Shown: positions 3,804 to 47,832 of the stretch, in pieces | Numbering within the stretch: the stretch's first letter is position 1 | How the letters are laid out: each line of letters starts with the position of its first letter | Source of the DNA: a virus | Virus record (IMG/VR): IMGVR_UViG_3300017971_000035 | Coordinates: 6,357 to 70,356 of that record | Length of the DNA stretch: 64,000 nucleotides | Reading direction: 5' to 3' (one strand) | The notes under the pieces: generated by a model | What the model was told of the DNA's origin: nothing | What the model saw: the letters and a program-made list of their open reading frames with translations, nothing else | Databases searched by the model: none | Made by a program: the position numbers and the translations under genes

Positions 3804-4103
3804 CTAATCCATTAAAAAATCTGTGCTTTCTCCCTGATTTTTAAGCAGTAAAACCATTCCCTTTTCGATACGTTGAATCGCTTTGCCGTTATCATCAGAC
3901 TCTTTGCCAATTCTTTCCTTGAAACGCTGAATGTTGTCATGCCTTTCTTTGCAATCGACATTATTTACTTTTTCATCCAGAATTTCTTTCATGGCCTGTT
4001 TGCTGTTATTCTTAACATTGCTTCTATGATTGAAGTATGTTATTGCTACTCCAAAAATAGTTGCAACGGTTCCAATTGTTACAGCATCAACTGAAATGTT
4101 CAA
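3804..4103 (-). CDS. Single-TM membrane protein, holin-like candidate
   Basis: N-terminal hydrophobic helix VTIGTVATIFGVAITYF followed by a charged coiled coil; TTG start after AGGAG. Confidence 0.4.
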   Translation of the reverse strand: MNISVDAVTIGTVATIFGVAITYFNHRSNVKNNSKQAMKEILDEKVNNVDCKERHDNIQRFKERIGKESDDNGKAIQRIEKGMVLLLKNQGESTDFLMD

Positions 4104-44590: not shown

Positions 44591-44764
44591 ATGATTGTGA
44601 CCCTTAACGACCAGCAATATGATGTCAAATGGCACTTCGACAGAGACTACCTGTTCATCGATTCCGTTGATGATGTTCCATCTGTAAATTTACAGGTCAA
44701 ATTTTTGAATATGATTAAAGGCTTTGTGAAAATTCAATTACATGAAAGGAGTAAGGAGCTATGA
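44591..44764 (+). CDS. Small hypothetical protein (57 aa)
   Basis: Manual translation MIVTLNDQQYDVKWHF...; ATGA overlap with the next gene. Confidence 0.45.
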   Translation: MIVTLNDQQYDVKWHFDRDYLFIDSVDDVPSVNLQVKFLNMIKGFVKIQLHERSKEL

Positions 44765-45276
44765 AAATCATCGAAGCTCTTAAGCAGCTTAAAGACCTGG
44801 AGAGAAAGGCCGACGATCTCCAGAAGAAAGTCATGGACCACACGGCCATCATGGATTTTGAGGATCCGGTTTACAAAGACCAGCATAAGAAAGTACGGTC
44901 ATGGATTGATGCTTTCCATGGTATCCAGGAAGAAATACTCCGGTTACATTGTGCCATTCAGGTCACGAATCTACAGACTCCTGTGGAAATCAAAATTTCT
45001 GATGCAAAGGCGAAGACCAGGACTATTGCAGAGTGGGTCATCAGGCGCCGGAAGACTGCCAAAAGGGAATTTAACTTCTGGGCCCATGTGAATGACCGCG
45101 GCCTGGTTACCAAACCCATTGTCAAGAAGGGCCAAACCGAACCTGAGATTGCAAAGGTCATCAGGTTCTATGATCCTGAAGAAAGAGATACCATGGTCGA
45201 GAGGTTGAGAGCTGAGGATGCGGCCATCGATGCGGCTCTTGAAATTGTCAATGCAAAAACAGATCTTATCGAATAA
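44761..45276 (+). CDS. DIP1984/DUF6847-like coiled-coil protein
   Basis: MKIIEALK..KDL.RK..DL at the N-terminus, AIQ.TNL.T.V...TIAEW centrally, and ID..L...NA.TDL at the C-terminus. Confidence 0.65.
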   Translation: MKIIEALKQLKDLERKADDLQKKVMDHTAIMDFEDPVYKDQHKKVRSWIDAFHGIQEEILRLHCAIQVTNLQTPVEIKISDAKAKTRTIAEWVIRRRKTAKREFNFWAHVNDRGLVTKPIVKKGQTEPEIAKVIRFYDPEERDTMVERLRAEDAAIDAALEIVNAKTDLIE

Positions 45277-45491
45277 CTGCCGGTTCAACCCTCGGCCGGG
45301 GAGCCACAGTAAGGAAGTATGAATGGCGAGATTGCCCAAGGGCCTTGGGAACTGGCCAGGCCAGCTTCTTCAGAGGGGAAGAATTTATATTACTGAGGAG
45401 TAGTAGCTTTCGCTAGGAAACTCATACACCGTGAACGAAGATAAAAACTGGAAAAGGAGGCGTTCTCATTTGACGATACTAAATGAAACCA

Positions 45492-45567
45492 TGCAACTTA
45501 GCTCAGTTGGTTAGAGCAACAGAGAGTAATCTGTAGGTAGTGCGTTCGAATCGCACAGATGCAGCCA
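45492..45567 (+). tRNA. tRNA-like element with an aberrant 6-nt anticodon loop (no assignable anticodon)
   Basis: Acceptor TGCAACT/AGATGCA (1 mismatch), D arm GCTC-AGTTGGTTA-GAGC, anticodon arm ACAGA-GAGTAA-TCTGT, T arm GTGCG-TTCGAAT-CGCAC, 3' GCCA. Confidence 0.85.
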
Positions 45568-45594
45568 ATCAACGGCTCGCAGGCGTAGTGTCTG

Positions 45595-45680
45595 CTCAAC
45601 ATCAAGGCTCAAGTCTCAAGAATTAAGTAAGTAAGGTTCAATCGGTTCAAGTGAAAAAGGTACAAGAACGCAAGGCTAAT
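45595..45680 (+). repeat. Degenerate (C/T)AAG array, about 7-nt period, 12-13 units
   Basis: CAAC atCAAG gctCAAG tctCAAG aatTAAG TAAG TAAG gttCAAT cggttCAAG tgaaAAAG gtaCAAG aacgCAAG gcTAAT. Confidence 0.75.
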
Positions 45681-45777
45681 CGGAAGACGAATGAGCTTCT
45701 GAATGTCCTCGGATAAGTTATTTTCCTCATTAACCCAGGTTACTTCCGAGGCTTCTCGTTTGGGGTGTACCAGAATC

Positions 45778-45816
45778 AAAATCGTGGCTTACTCTGTGAA
45801 GCCACGATTTTTTTTT
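45778..45816 (+). terminator. Rho-independent terminator
   Basis: AAAATCGTGGCTT-N8-AAGCCACGATTTT plus further Ts. Confidence 0.9.
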
Positions 45817-45826
45817 GGAGGTAAAC

Positions 45827-46120
45827 ATGTCAGTAAATGGAATTGATATTACAGATGTTATAATCTTTCCTGTGAAAAATAAACCGGAAGATTCATGCCT
45901 TGCTGCATTTGCAAGGATAGTTTTTAATGACCAATTCATCGTATCTGGTATCAGAGTTTTCGAAGGAGAAAATGGACCTTTTATAAAATTTCCACAAGAA
46001 TATAACAGGAATGTTGGTAAAGGATATGATGTCTGTTTTCCAATCACAGCAGAACTCCGATGTTATATCCATGACCAAGTTCTTAGCCAGTATTCAATCA
46101 CTATGGAGATAAAATCATAA
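45827..46120 (+). CDS. spoVG: SpoVG-family protein 2
   Basis: ITDV.IFP, LAAFARIVFNDQFIVSGIRVFEG.NG.FI.FP and YDVCFPITAELR. Confidence 0.9.
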   Translation: MSVNGIDITDVIIFPVKNKPEDSCLAAFARIVFNDQFIVSGIRVFEGENGPFIKFPQEYNRNVGKGYDVCFPITAELRCYIHDQVLSQYSITMEIKS

Positions 46121-47508: not shown

Positions 47509-47832
47509 ATGAGTATTAATGGTATAGAAATCACCGATGTGGTGATATTCCCAATCAAAAACAAACAGGAAGGAAGTAACCTTCAATCATTTGCCAAGGT
47601 TCTTTTCAATGACACATTCTGTATCACAGGGATACGAATCGTCGAAGGAAAGAACGGCTTATTTCTCGGTTTCCCTCAACAGTATAAAAAGGAAGAGGGA
47701 AAGGGATACGATATTTGCTTCCCGACTACGGCCGACATGCGAGAGTATATAACCGATCAGGTTCTTGCTCAGTATGAGCTGGCAAAAAACGTTGATGCTG
47801 ATCCTCAAGAAGGAAATGAAAGCCAGTATTAA
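47509..47832 (+). CDS. spoVG: SpoVG-family protein 3
   Basis: ITDVVIFP, FAKVLFNDTFCITGIRIVEGKNGLFLGFP and YDICFPTT; AAGGAGG SD. Confidence 0.92.
   Translation: MSINGIEITDVVIFPIKNKQEGSNLQSFAKVLFNDTFCITGIRIVEGKNGLFLGFPQQYKKEEGKGYDICFPTTADMREYITDQVLAQYELAKNVDADPQEGNESQY

What the first reader, a model, noticed from the sequence alone, without database searches (positions are those of the whole stretch)
44761..45816. Candidate undescribed ribonucleoprotein system: a DIP1984/DUF6847-like coiled-coil gene followed by a large structured ncRNA
Seen: in an otherwise gene-dense phage, this 171-aa helical gene is followed by ~540 nt with no ORF, ending in a strong terminator (45778-45816). The first ~150 nt are a chain of hairpins (CCCAAG/CTTGGG, CTGGC/GCCAG, TTCTTC/GAAGAA, TAGC/GCTA). 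A long-range stem (TACACC-G-TGAACG 45425-37 with CGTTTG-G-GGTGTA 45757-69) then closes a ~345-nt domain. That domain holds a tRNA-like cloverleaf, a periodic YAAG array and a CCTCGG/CCGAGG stem, whose loop CCAG (45735-38) could pseudoknot with CTGG (45448-51). Recalled but unverified: DIP1984-like genes have no known function and often lie near RNA-repair (rtcB) loci. Inference: the protein oligomerises and binds its own cis-encoded repeat RNA, perhaps as a decoy or repair aid against host anti-phage RNases.
Basis: partly seen in the sequence, partly recalled or inferred. Interest (0 to 1): 0.88.

Follow-up and report, generated by a model that had tools for sequence, protein, structure and literature searches.

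The report
Phage protein gene with partner RNA
Behind a small helical-protein gene this phage encodes a roughly 350-base folded, knotted RNA that carries a crippled tRNA and a seven-base repeat; the same gene-plus-RNA pair recurs in every related phage examined, so the two probably work together, though their job is unknown.

Summary
Window 45423-45771 (+) is one member of a conserved family of structured phage RNAs, 251-438 nt long. My covariance model R1 hits the window once (129 bits, E=7.5e-34). It also hits 79 of 80 related viral loci once each, always on the strand of the DUF6847-like gene; the one miss is a truncated locus. An RNA-first search found the gene beside 27 of 27 assessable RNAs. 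No other gene is shared between the loci. Among distinct RNAs, 33 of 71 embed a tRNA; the window's copy has a 6-nt anticodon loop. AAG units recur every 7-8 nt. Across all Rfam scans the only above-threshold match inside these RNAs is tRNA; GOLLD, ROOL, YrlA and RAGATH-27 do not match. The first 146 nt after the gene are not conserved and are not unusually structured. Protein-RNA binding and function remain untested, and the recalled rtcB link was not seen. Earlier notes of this scan report the same pair on other DNA. I found no paper describing it.

The parts
44761..45276 (+). DUF6847/DIP1984-like gene, 171 aa: helical, predicted to form a dimer
   Evidence: The ORF is listed. NF038048 matches at E=1.1e-7 over its full length, below the curated cut-off. 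Relatives carry PF20935. The AF2 model has pLDDT 96.6. Foldseek's best match is 3kdq. The dimer scores 0.75 against 0.00 for the best control.
45277..45422 (+). Spacer specific to this phage, not part of the conserved RNA; holds an unconserved 25-codon micro-ORF at 45319-45396
   Evidence: The only match in 154 other loci is one 18-nt identity in L034 (E=0.009), taken as chance. The fold z-score is -0.88. In 49 of 71 downstream cases the RNA starts within 39 nt of the stop codon.
45423..45771 (+). Conserved structured RNA, full-length member of the family modelled by R1
   Evidence: It is the only R1 match in the 64-kb window: 129.1 bits, E=7.5e-34, model positions 1-304 of 304.
45425..45438 (+). 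P1 closing stem, 5' strand (P1a 45426-30, bulged G 45431, P1b 45432-38)
   Evidence: RNAalifold on the MAFFT alignment predicts it. The two helices are 97.7% and 96.3% paired, and all 12 pairs show compensatory changes.
45439..45447 (+). Nearly invariant A-rich junction AGAUAAAAA (family consensus AGAGAUAAAAAC)
   Evidence: These are invariant or nearly invariant columns in the 48-sequence alignment. The motif occurs with at most 2 mismatches near the gene in 53 of 81 loci.
45448..45451 (+). Pseudoknot, 5' strand (CUGG)
   Evidence: An unbiased scan of column pairs found it. It is 78.4% paired with both-side changes at 4 of 4 pairs, although it was not modelled in R1.
45466..45486 (+). P3 hairpin (UCAUUU/AAAUGA) with conserved loop G-A-CGAUA
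   Evidence: The CGATA loop word and the varying stems were seen by eye in alignment A2. They were not counted formally.
45492..45567 (+). Embedded tRNA-like cloverleaf with encoded CCA and a 6-nt anticodon loop (GAGUAA, no U33)
   Evidence: ARAGORN calls it 'tRNA-???'. Rfam tRNA scores 48.9 bits with a 6-nt loop in place of 7. It is 84% identical to phage tRNA-Thr genes. In the family, 33 of 71 distinct RNAs hold a tRNA at this site.
45579..45595 (+). Small hairpin (GCAGGC/GUCUGC) between the tRNA and the repeat array
   Evidence: It appears in the single-sequence fold. This region varies across the family.
45604..45674 (+). AAG repeat array: 10 AAG units, mostly 7-8 nt apart
   Evidence: The window positions and the family-wide spacing peaks at 7 and 8 nt, with shuffles as control, come.
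45680..45702 (+). P4 hairpin, followed by the conserved GAAUGUCC (45701-45708)
   Evidence: It is 76.4% paired with both-side changes at 4 of 4 pairs. GAAYGWCC is conserved in the seed alignment.
45707..45751 (+). P5 (CCUCGG 45707-12 / CCGAGG 45746-51) with inner AAGU/ACUU (45715-18 / 45742-45); its loop carries the pseudoknot 3' strand CCAG 45735-38
   Evidence: P5 is 95.4% paired and 5 of 6 pairs show compensatory changes. The inner helix is 89.2% paired.
45756..45769 (+). P1 closing stem, 3' strand, preceded by the conserved GGCUUC
45778..45816 (+). Intrinsic terminator directly after the RNA
   Evidence: A 13-bp stem with an 8-nt loop, followed by a T run.

Best explanation
What it is. Window 45423-45771 encodes one member of an undescribed family of structured phage RNAs, 251-438 nt long. 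In order, the RNA has:
- a covarying closing stem;
- an invariant A-rich junction;
- an H-type pseudoknot;
- a small hairpin with a CGAUA loop;
- a variable bay that holds a tRNA or a tRNA-like module;
- about 10 AAG units spaced 7-8 nt apart;
- a conserved 3' domain.

Shown: the RNA and the DUF6847/DIP1984-like gene form a self-contained two-gene module. They lie on the same strand and usually only a few bases apart.

Inferred:
- The two are made from one transcript that ends at the terminator at 45778-45816.
- The helical protein, as a dimer or a higher oligomer, binds the evenly spaced AAG units.
- The folded core holds out the tRNA-shaped module so that it meets something that recognises tRNAs, such as a host tRNA-cutting defence nuclease or a tRNA-processing or tRNA-modifying enzyme. 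In layout this is a phage counterpart of a Y RNA-Ro particle.
- In this phage the tRNA module can no longer decode normally (6-nt anticodon loop, no U33) and yet is kept. That fits a role for its shape rather than its decoding.
For: Family and structure (shown):
- R1 hits 80 of 81 sources once each, all on the gene's strand. The one miss, L067, has only 103 nt of DNA after the gene.
- 90.8% of cells pair against 65.0% in shuffles, and 0 of 500 shuffles reach this. 29 of 30 pairs show compensatory changes. Slid controls give 34-48%.
- The pseudoknot was found by an unbiased scan and holds although it is not in the model.
- G-U pairs are common in P1b (18 and 19 of 71 rows at two pairs). That marks RNA of this strand, not DNA.

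Linkage (shown):
- Among ORFs of at least 60 aa in 81 loci, only the DUF6847 gene is shared (81 of 81). The next non-overlapping cluster occurs in 6 loci.
- A DNA pattern drawn from the RNA alone gave 30 true RNAs. Of these, 27 have the gene beside them on the same strand. The other 3 have at most 105 nt of stored DNA on the 5' side.
- All 10 contigs binned into metagenome-assembled genomes (MAGs) whose homologue is at least 39% identical carry the RNA.
- 71 of 80 RNAs lie downstream of the gene, with a median gap of 14 nt. 9 lie 13-111 nt upstream of the start codon.

tRNA module:
- 33 of 71 distinct RNAs hold an ARAGORN tRNA inside the RNA.
- 11 of those 33 have odd anticodon loops: 5 without a 3-base anticodon, 5 with A34, and 1 with tca.
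- Three members give sub-threshold YrlA matches (37.5, 34.5 and 40.7 bits against a cut-off of 69).

Repeats: AAG spacings of 7 and 8 nt occur 191 and 141 times, against 11.4 and 11.2 in shuffles.

Protein:
- The model is confident (pLDDT 96.6).
- The homodimer scores 0.75 against 0.00 for the best of 3 controls. That mark was reached by 20 of 30 proteins solved as pairs of one chain and by 1 of 23 solved as single chains. The runs agree in at least 97% of contacts, and the partner's pLDDT is at least 91.
- 3kdq is a solved relative listed with several chains, so this pass may reflect that likeness.

Transcription: a terminator follows the RNA, and the scan found no promoter-like site between the gene and the RNA.
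Against: - No test here shows that the protein touches the RNA, and no expression data could be had.
- The fold has no recognised RNA-binding motif. Its only significant structural relative is a protein of unknown function.
- Four cellular DIP1984 genes that score above the curated cut-off sit in ordinary chromosomal settings without an AAG array. The fold therefore does not always come with this RNA.
- 22 of 71 downstream RNAs lie 140 nt or more from the gene, so they may have promoters of their own.
- The AAG array could serve RNA-RNA contacts instead, as in RNA-only cages.
- The embedded tRNAs are of many types, and 22 of 33 look normal. The bay may simply be a place from which tRNAs are expressed.
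- The decoy idea rests on analogy only.
Confidence: 0.5

Rival explanations
1. The RNA works without bound protein, like GOLLD and ROOL. It assembles with itself into a multimer or cage that carries covalently linked tRNAs. The DUF6847 protein would then be a helper (chaperone, cargo or regulator), not a stable partner bound to the repeats.
For: - The family shares the hallmarks of GOLLD and ROOL: it is found in phages, it is large and pseudoknotted, and it sits at tRNA islands. For example, L042 has 17 tRNAs in the locus, one of them inside the RNA and 15 after it.
- The AAG units could make A-minor or other RNA-RNA contacts (inference).
Against: - Neither GOLLD nor ROOL is reported with an obligatory neighbouring gene. 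Here the gene is present in 27 of 27 assessable RNA-first loci and in 80 of 80 loci with enough DNA.
- No Rfam model, GOLLD and ROOL among them, matches the window (E up to 10) or 10 tested relatives (E up to 1), nor 20 other relatives at gathering scores.
- At a median of 335 nt the RNA is much smaller than either.
Confidence: 0.2
2. The RNA is mainly a cis-acting untranslated region of the DUF6847 mRNA. The protein binds it to control its own synthesis or the stability of the message, and there is no separate function in trans.
For: - The RNA lies on the same strand as the gene with very short gaps (median 14 nt). It can sit on either side of the gene: 71 downstream and 9 upstream.
- The scan found no promoter-like site between the gene and the RNA.
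Against: - A roughly 300-nt core with a pseudoknot, a tRNA bay and about 10 repeats is far more than autoregulation needs.
- The RNA functions in both 5' and 3' positions.
- This account would leave the protein itself without any role.
Confidence: 0.12
3. Only the tRNA matters. The flanks are leader and trailer of a phage tRNA gene, or decayed tRNA remnants, and the neighbourhood with the gene is plain synteny.
For: - Six GenBank phages match the window only at the tRNA.
- Many loci carry tRNA arrays.
Against: - 38 of 71 distinct RNAs have no ARAGORN tRNA yet keep the whole core.
- The covarying stems and the pseudoknot lie outside the tRNA.
- No other gene is syntenic across the loci.
- The window's tRNA has a defective anticodon loop.
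Confidence: 0.03
4. It is a DNA-level element such as an origin with iterons, a packaging site or an attachment site, not an RNA.
For: - It contains short repeated units.
- The tRNA-like sequence is reminiscent of attachment sites.
Against: - Pairing tolerates G-U on this strand only.
- Compensatory changes preserve helices and a pseudoknot.
- The orientation relative to the gene is fixed in 80 of 80 loci.
- A terminator follows the RNA.
Confidence: 0.02

Closest known systems
GOLLD RNA (large phage/prophage RNA)
   Same: - It is phage-borne and lies at tRNA islands.
- It has a conserved 3' region and a variable part that sometimes contains tRNAs.
- Its function is unknown.
(Passages of PMC12286853.)
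   Different: - No Rfam family other than tRNA matched the window at E up to 10, 10 relatives at E up to 1 or 20 relatives at gathering scores.
- GOLLD is over 800 nt, against a median of 335 nt here.
- GOLLD has no reported obligatory partner gene.
ROOL RNA
   Same: - It occurs in phages and prophages, near tRNAs.
- It has several pseudoknots.
- Its function is unknown.
(Passages of PMC5737381, and of PMC12286853.)
   Different: - The Rfam model does not match.
- ROOL averages 581 nt.
- No protein partner is known for ROOL, whereas this RNA always has the DUF6847 gene beside it.
Bacterial Y RNA-like YrlA with Ro60/Rsr (recalled: a closing stem binds the Ro ring and a tRNA-like module recruits another factor)
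   Same: - The layout is alike: a closing stem plus a displayed tRNA-like module, encoded next to its protein.
- Three family members give sub-threshold YrlA matches inside the variable bay.
   Different: - The window has no YrlA match at E up to 10.
- The relatives score 34-41 bits against a cut-off of 69.
- The protein is a helical DUF6847 fold, not a Ro60 ring.
- Y RNAs are not known to me to have an AAG array or this pseudoknot (recalled).
PDB 3kdq, 'functionally unknown conserved protein from Corynebacterium diphtheriae'
   Same: It is the best and only significant structural match of the window's protein: E=2.4e-4, probability 1.00, TM 0.58-0.64. NF038048 aligns over the full length.
   Different: - Identity is only 16%.
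- The NCBIfam score is 32 bits, below the cut-off of 70.
- Four cellular family members showed no AAG-array RNA beside them.
Repeat-reading oligomeric RNA-binding proteins (recalled: TRAP binds 11 G/UAG triplets; HutP binds UAG triplets separated by 4 nt)
   Same: NAG triplets recur at a fixed short period. The 7-nt period here equals a triplet plus 4 spacer bases.
   Different: The folds are unrelated, and no binding has been shown for DUF6847. This is an analogy of mechanism only.
RAGATH-27 (RF03100), named by earlier notes of this scan as covering the 5' part of such RNAs
   Same: It is claimed for related gene-plus-RNA pairs on other DNA.
   Different: - It has no match in the window's genome at E up to 10.
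- It was not listed for 19 related loci scanned at E up to 1 or 0.1.
- It has no match in phage T5.

Membership tests
New RNA family defined here (model R1) | Full-length match to the covariance model | tested here: met
   Window 45423-45771 scores 129.1 bits, E=7.5e-34, over model positions 1-304 of 304. It is the only hit in 64 kb. The window was not among the 16 sequences used to build the model.
New RNA family defined here (model R1) | Closing stem P1, stem P5 and the pseudoknot are all formable | tested here: met
   The window row pairs at P1a, P1b, P5, P5i and the pseudoknot. The single-sequence fold recovers P1, P4 and P5.
New RNA family defined here (model R1) | Adjacent, co-oriented DUF6847-like gene | tested here: met
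   The gene ends 146 nt upstream of the RNA, on the same strand.
tRNA (RF00005) | Cloverleaf scoring above the Rfam gathering score | tested here: met
   48.9 bits against a gathering score of 29. ARAGORN also calls it.
tRNA (RF00005) | 7-nt anticodon loop with U33 and a 3-base anticodon | tested here: not met
   The loop GAGUAA has 6 nt. ARAGORN reports the 2-base 'gt', and the Rfam alignment shows 6 positions in place of 7.
GOLLD / ROOL | Match to the Rfam covariance model | tested here: not met
   A scan of all 4227 Rfam families over 45200-45900 at E up to 10 listed neither. Neither appeared in 20 relatives at gathering score or in 10 relatives at E up to 1.
YrlA (RF02553) | Match to the Rfam covariance model | tested here: not met
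   No match in the window's genome at E up to 10. Three relatives score 34.5-40.7 bits, below the cut-off of 69.
RAGATH-27 (RF03100) | Match to the Rfam covariance model | tested here: not met
   No match in the window's genome at E up to 10.
DIP1984 / DUF6847 protein family | Score above the curated cut-off of NF038048 or PF20935 | tested here: not met
   NF038048 gives 32.1 bits against a cut-off of 70. PF20935 was not reported at E up to 10.
DIP1984 / DUF6847 protein family | Homology shown through intermediates and fold | tested here: met
   NF038048 aligns over positions 1-149 of 149 at E=1.1e-7. Many of the listed homologues (38-54% identical) carry PF20935. Foldseek's best PDB hit is 3kdq.
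Y RNA-Ro-type ribonucleoprotein (works-like claim) | The protein binds the RNA | not testable with these tools
   No protein-RNA binding or co-folding tool was available. Only the genetic linkage is shown.

The most novel reading that the evidence does not exclude
A phage-encoded ribonucleoprotein of a new kind. Oligomers of a DUF6847 protein read a ruler of AAG units on a knotted scaffold RNA. The particle displays or cages a tRNA or tRNA mimic. That module either traps host tRNA-cutting defence nucleases or shelters phage tRNAs from them. It would be a viral, protein-assisted counterpart of the Y RNA-Ro particle and of the GOLLD/ROOL cages.
Probability: 0.15. Interest if true: 0.92.

Novelty: new variant of a known kind. 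Interest (0 to 1): 0.82.

Why it matters
Large structured phage RNAs such as GOLLD and ROOL are among the least understood RNAs in biology, and no protein partner or function is known for the phage ones. This family has the same habits: it lives in phages, sits at tRNA islands and can embed a tRNA. Unlike them, it comes with a dedicated, small, confidently folding protein gene in every assessable case. That gives a direct experimental handle: co-express the pair, pull it down, image it, delete either part. The results could show what this class of RNA does. The retained but non-decoding tRNA in this phage points to a role for tRNA shape rather than decoding. That is relevant to the contest between phages and tRNA-targeting defence systems.

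Tried and rejected
- Known RNA families. An Rfam gathering scan of the whole window found nothing; it even missed the tRNA that scores 48.9 bits in the local scan. GOLLD, ROOL, YrlA and RAGATH-27 were rejected as memberships.

- Claims in earlier notes. Notes of this scan say the pair occurs in phage T5 and that RAGATH-27 covers its 5' part. In T5 (NC_005859), R1 gave only 7.3 bits (E=0.68). Profile A1, PF20935 and RF03100 gave nothing. These claims are therefore not reproduced for this class. T5 may hold a more distant class that my models cannot see.

- Cultured phages. tblastn of the window's protein against 50,697 GenBank phage records gave no match. blastn of the locus matched only the tRNA. 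Foldseek against viral models did find uncharacterised proteins of cultured phages (Aeromonas LAh_9, Cronobacter vB_CsaP_009, Acinetobacter PhT2) at E of 1e-4 to 6e-3. I did not follow these up.

- Structure database by sequence. Profile A1 gave no PDB match.

- Expression.

- The rtcB link. It was not seen in the phage genome or among the named neighbours of 4 cellular DIP1984 genes (8 flanking ORFs scanned, one without a Pfam hit).

- T-loop count. A T-loop word count gave 60 of 71, but I do not use it because the pattern also matches inside the AAG array.

- Weak fold matches. Foldseek hits to the coiled-coil arm of seryl-tRNA synthetase (E=1.6-2.8) are too weak to use.

- Papers.
  - No paper held DUF6847, DIP1984 or PF20935. 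The 35 hits were all for 'septicolysin', and the 20 listed concern unrelated topics such as Acinetobacter plasmids (listing only).
  - No paper held RAGATH-27 or RF03100. The two hits for 3KDQ are unrelated (listing only).
  - Searches for ROOL/GOLLD and for structured phage RNAs with embedded tRNAs returned only the known families (listings; passages of PMC5737381 and PMC12286853).
  - Supplementary files were not consulted. The supplementary motif lists of PMC5737381 could hold this RNA under another name.
Full report
**Setting.** The window is part of a complete 70,356-base virus record with direct terminal repeats. The 171-aa ORF at 44761-45276 (+) is followed by 550 nt before the next gene, a SpoVG homologue at 45827-46120 (Pfam PF04026, E=2.4e-19). 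The pair sits in a rightward block of small genes (YAcAr/SLOG, DUF7694 and a second SpoVG). That block diverges from a small-terminase gene on the other strand.

**The protein.**
- It has no Pfam hit of its own.
- It aligns end to end with NCBIfam NF038048 (DIP1984_fam) at E=1.1e-7, below the curated cut-off.
- A word-indexed search found 158 relatives at E of 0.001 or less among 316 candidates. The best non-self relative is 54% identical, and many carry PF20935, which is DUF6847.
- A profile search of 1.84 billion cluster representatives found 732 at E of 0.001 or less, 372 at 1e-10 or less and 138 at 1e-30 or less. Among the 150 best listed, most are full-length single-domain proteins of about 170 aa.
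- AlphaFold gives a confident model of four long helices with short strands (pLDDT 96.6, pTM 0.80).
- The only significant solved relative is 3kdq, an uncharacterised Corynebacterium diphtheriae protein (E=2.4e-4, TM 0.58-0.64).
- A homodimer is predicted at 0.75, against 0.00 for the best of 3 controls. That mark was reached by 20 of 30 proteins solved as pairs of one chain and by 1 of 23 solved as single chains. The runs agree in at least 97% of contacts, and the partner's pLDDT is at least 91. Because 3kdq is a solved relative listed with several chains, this pass may reflect likeness rather than independent evidence.

**The RNA is real and conserved.**
- ARAGORN finds one tRNA-like gene in the whole window, at 45492-45567, with a 6-nt anticodon loop. 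Rfam's tRNA model scores it 48.9 bits.
- I collected 80 viral loci that encode relatives of the protein. Downstream of the gene they share a motif, AGAGATAAAAAC, and a 3' domain ending ...AACTT-NNNN-AGGCTTCC-TGTTTGGG. An nhmmer profile of that 3' domain hit 60 of 81 loci.
- A MAFFT alignment of 48 distinct full-length RNAs, folded with RNAalifold, gave a 13-bp closing stem and a 6-bp 3' stem. 18 of the 20 predicted pairs show compensatory changes.
- An unbiased scan of column pairs in a 16-sequence alignment found, in this order, the two halves of the closing stem, the 3' stem and a four-pair pseudoknot.
- I built covariance model R1 from those 16 sequences; the window was not among them. R1 hits 80 of 81 sources exactly once each, always on the gene's strand. 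The only miss, L067, has just 103 nt of DNA after the gene. The window's hit is 45423-45771 (129.1 bits, E=7.5e-34).
- On the resulting 71 distinct rows, 90.8% of cells pair against 65.0% in shuffles, and 0 of 500 shuffles reach this. 29 of 30 pairs have changes on both sides. Sliding the partners by 1-3 columns drops pairing to 34-48%.
- That alignment is fitted to the nested helices, which favours them. The pseudoknot was not in the model, yet it is 78.4% paired with both-side changes at all four positions. The MAFFT-based result is independent of the model.
- Frequent G-U pairs on this strand argue for RNA and against a DNA element.

- Right: the long-range stem, the GATAAAAAC junction, the cloverleaf, the YAAG array, the CCTCGG/CCGAGG stem and the CCAG/CTGG pseudoknot are all conserved family features at the stated coordinates.
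- Wrong: the first 146 nt after the gene (45277-45422) are not part of the RNA.
  - Their only match in the 154 other loci is one 18-nt identity in L034 (E=0.009), which I take as chance.
  - They fold no better than shuffles (z=-0.88).
  - In 49 of 71 downstream cases the RNA starts within 39 nt of the stop codon.

**The gene and the RNA are one module.**
- An all-against-all comparison of ORFs of at least 60 aa in 81 loci found only the DUF6847 gene shared (81 of 81). Apart from two antisense shadow clusters inside that gene, the largest other cluster occurs in 6 loci.
- Searching from the RNA side, a DNA pattern taken from the 3' domain matched 55 viral stretches. Of the 54 that were new loci, 30 are true R1 hits.
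- Of those 30, 27 have a DUF6847 gene on the same strand beside the RNA. The other 3 have at most 105 nt of stored DNA on the 5' side, so they cannot be judged.
- Among contigs binned into metagenome-assembled genomes (MAGs), all 10 loci whose homologue is at least 39% identical carry the RNA.
- Eight more distant homologues (26-31% identical) have no significant R1 hit. By eye, the 7 I examined are followed by a divergent RNA of the same design: a closing stem plus blocks of AAG units 7 nt apart.
- Overall 71 RNAs lie downstream of the gene (median gap 14 nt), and 9 lie 13-111 nt upstream of the start codon. RNA lengths are 251-438 nt, median 335.

**The tRNA bay.**
- 33 of 71 distinct RNAs contain an ARAGORN tRNA inside the RNA, between the CGAUA hairpin and the AAG array.
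- The tRNAs are of many types. Thr-TGT is the commonest, with 6.
- 11 of the 33 have odd anticodon loops: 5 without a 3-base anticodon (the window among them), 5 with A34, and 1 with tca.
- Members without a called tRNA often still show anticodon-arm-like and T-arm-like hairpins. Some have the order T arm, acceptor, D arm (by eye). Three such members give sub-threshold YrlA matches.
- The window's copy is most like phage tRNA-Thr genes (84% identity). It lacks U33 and one loop base, so normal decoding is unlikely (inference). It is the only tRNA-like gene in the window.

**The repeat array.** Across 71 RNAs, AAG spacings of 7 and 8 nt occur 191 and 141 times, against 11.4 and 11.2 in shuffles. 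Secondary peaks fall at 14-16 nt. The window has 10 units between 45604 and 45674.

**Known families.**
- Across all Rfam scans, tRNA is the only above-threshold match inside these RNAs. This covers the window at E up to 10, 20 relatives at gathering scores, 10 relatives at E up to 1 and 9 further loci at E up to 0.1.
- The one other above-threshold hit was a SAM riboswitch elsewhere in L150.
- GOLLD and ROOL share the biology: phages, tRNA islands, tRNAs in the GOLLD linker, and no known partner for ROOL (passages read). Their models do not match.
- RAGATH-27 and YrlA do not match the window's genome.

**Earlier notes of this scan.** They report the same kind of pair on other DNA. The lead to 3kdq checks out. 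The T5 and RAGATH-27 claims were not reproduced with my models.

**The recalled rtcB link.** The phage has no RtcB. Four cellular DIP1984 genes that score above the cut-off, found in 301 sampled genomes, lie next to housekeeping genes and have no AAG array.

**Mechanism.**
- Shown: a conserved, pseudoknotted RNA of this strand; obligatory linkage to the gene; a tRNA bay; and a periodic AAG array.
- Inferred: co-transcription (short gaps, no promoter-like site between the two, a terminator after the RNA); binding of a dimeric or oligomeric protein to the AAG ruler; and display of a tRNA-shaped module to a tRNA-recognising factor.
- The decoy role is an analogy to Y RNA particles and to known phage-host conflicts over tRNAs (recalled). 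It remains the weakest step.

**Verdict.** It is a member of an RNA family that is absent from Rfam 15 and from the papers searched, and it is tied to a partner protein. Function is open. No RNA holder was listed for this stretch, so expression could not be examined.

Noticed in passing
window 45319-45396 (+): A 25-codon micro-ORF (MNGEIAQGPWELARPASSEGKNLYY) with an AAGGAAG word just upstream lies in the spacer between the gene and the RNA. tblastn found no relative in 154 other loci.
   Followed up: partly
window 45827-46120 and 47509-47832 (+): Two SpoVG-family genes (PF04026, E=2.4e-19 and 7.3e-22). One starts right after the RNA's terminator. SpoVG is not a conserved neighbour of the module in other phages.
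   Followed up: partly
window 1-64000: The Rfam gathering-mode scan of the whole window returned nothing, yet the local scan scores the embedded tRNA at 48.9 bits against a gathering score of 29. The fast filters can lose it.
   Followed up: no
L148, L150-L155 (about 10-480 nt after the gene): Distant DUF6847 homologues (26-31% identical; Synergistaceae and other genomes assembled from metagenomes) are followed by a divergent RNA of the same design. It has a long closing stem, a GCGGCGA(C/U)GUAA-like junction and two blocks of AAG units 7 nt apart. R1 does not detect it.
   Followed up: partly
L158-L161 (downstream of cellular DIP1984 genes): The non-coding stretches after four chromosomal DUF6847 genes share short blocks in pairs. 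L160 and L161 share ...AACAGGGGGTTGAAAA.... L158 and L159 share ...GTACAAGTGAC... and a G-rich block. A different conserved element may accompany the cellular genes.
   Followed up: no
L042 3594-5626: This locus holds 17 tRNAs. One lies between the gene and the RNA, one (Thr) is embedded in the RNA at 3965-4041, and 15 follow it. The module heads a tRNA operon.
   Followed up: no
L068 2306-2661: A tmRNA gene (tag ANPDLALQAA) lies about 340 nt upstream of the DUF6847 gene in a viral contig.
   Followed up: no
24 of the 54 loci L084-L137 (such as L085, L086, L088): 24 pattern matches are not R1 RNAs. Many of them have the same 59-nt span, which suggests another recurrent sequence that happens to fit the pattern.
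   Followed up: no
control genomes of the genome search: Among the 14 named control genomes, only Deinococcus radiodurans holds a DIP1984-family gene above the NF038048 cut-off. By my recollection it is also the organism in which bacterial Ro and Y RNA were studied.
   Followed up: no
L150 941-1049: A SAM riboswitch (89.1 bits) lies about 1.45 kb upstream of the start of a distant DUF6847 homologue in a Synergistaceae contig.
   Followed up: no
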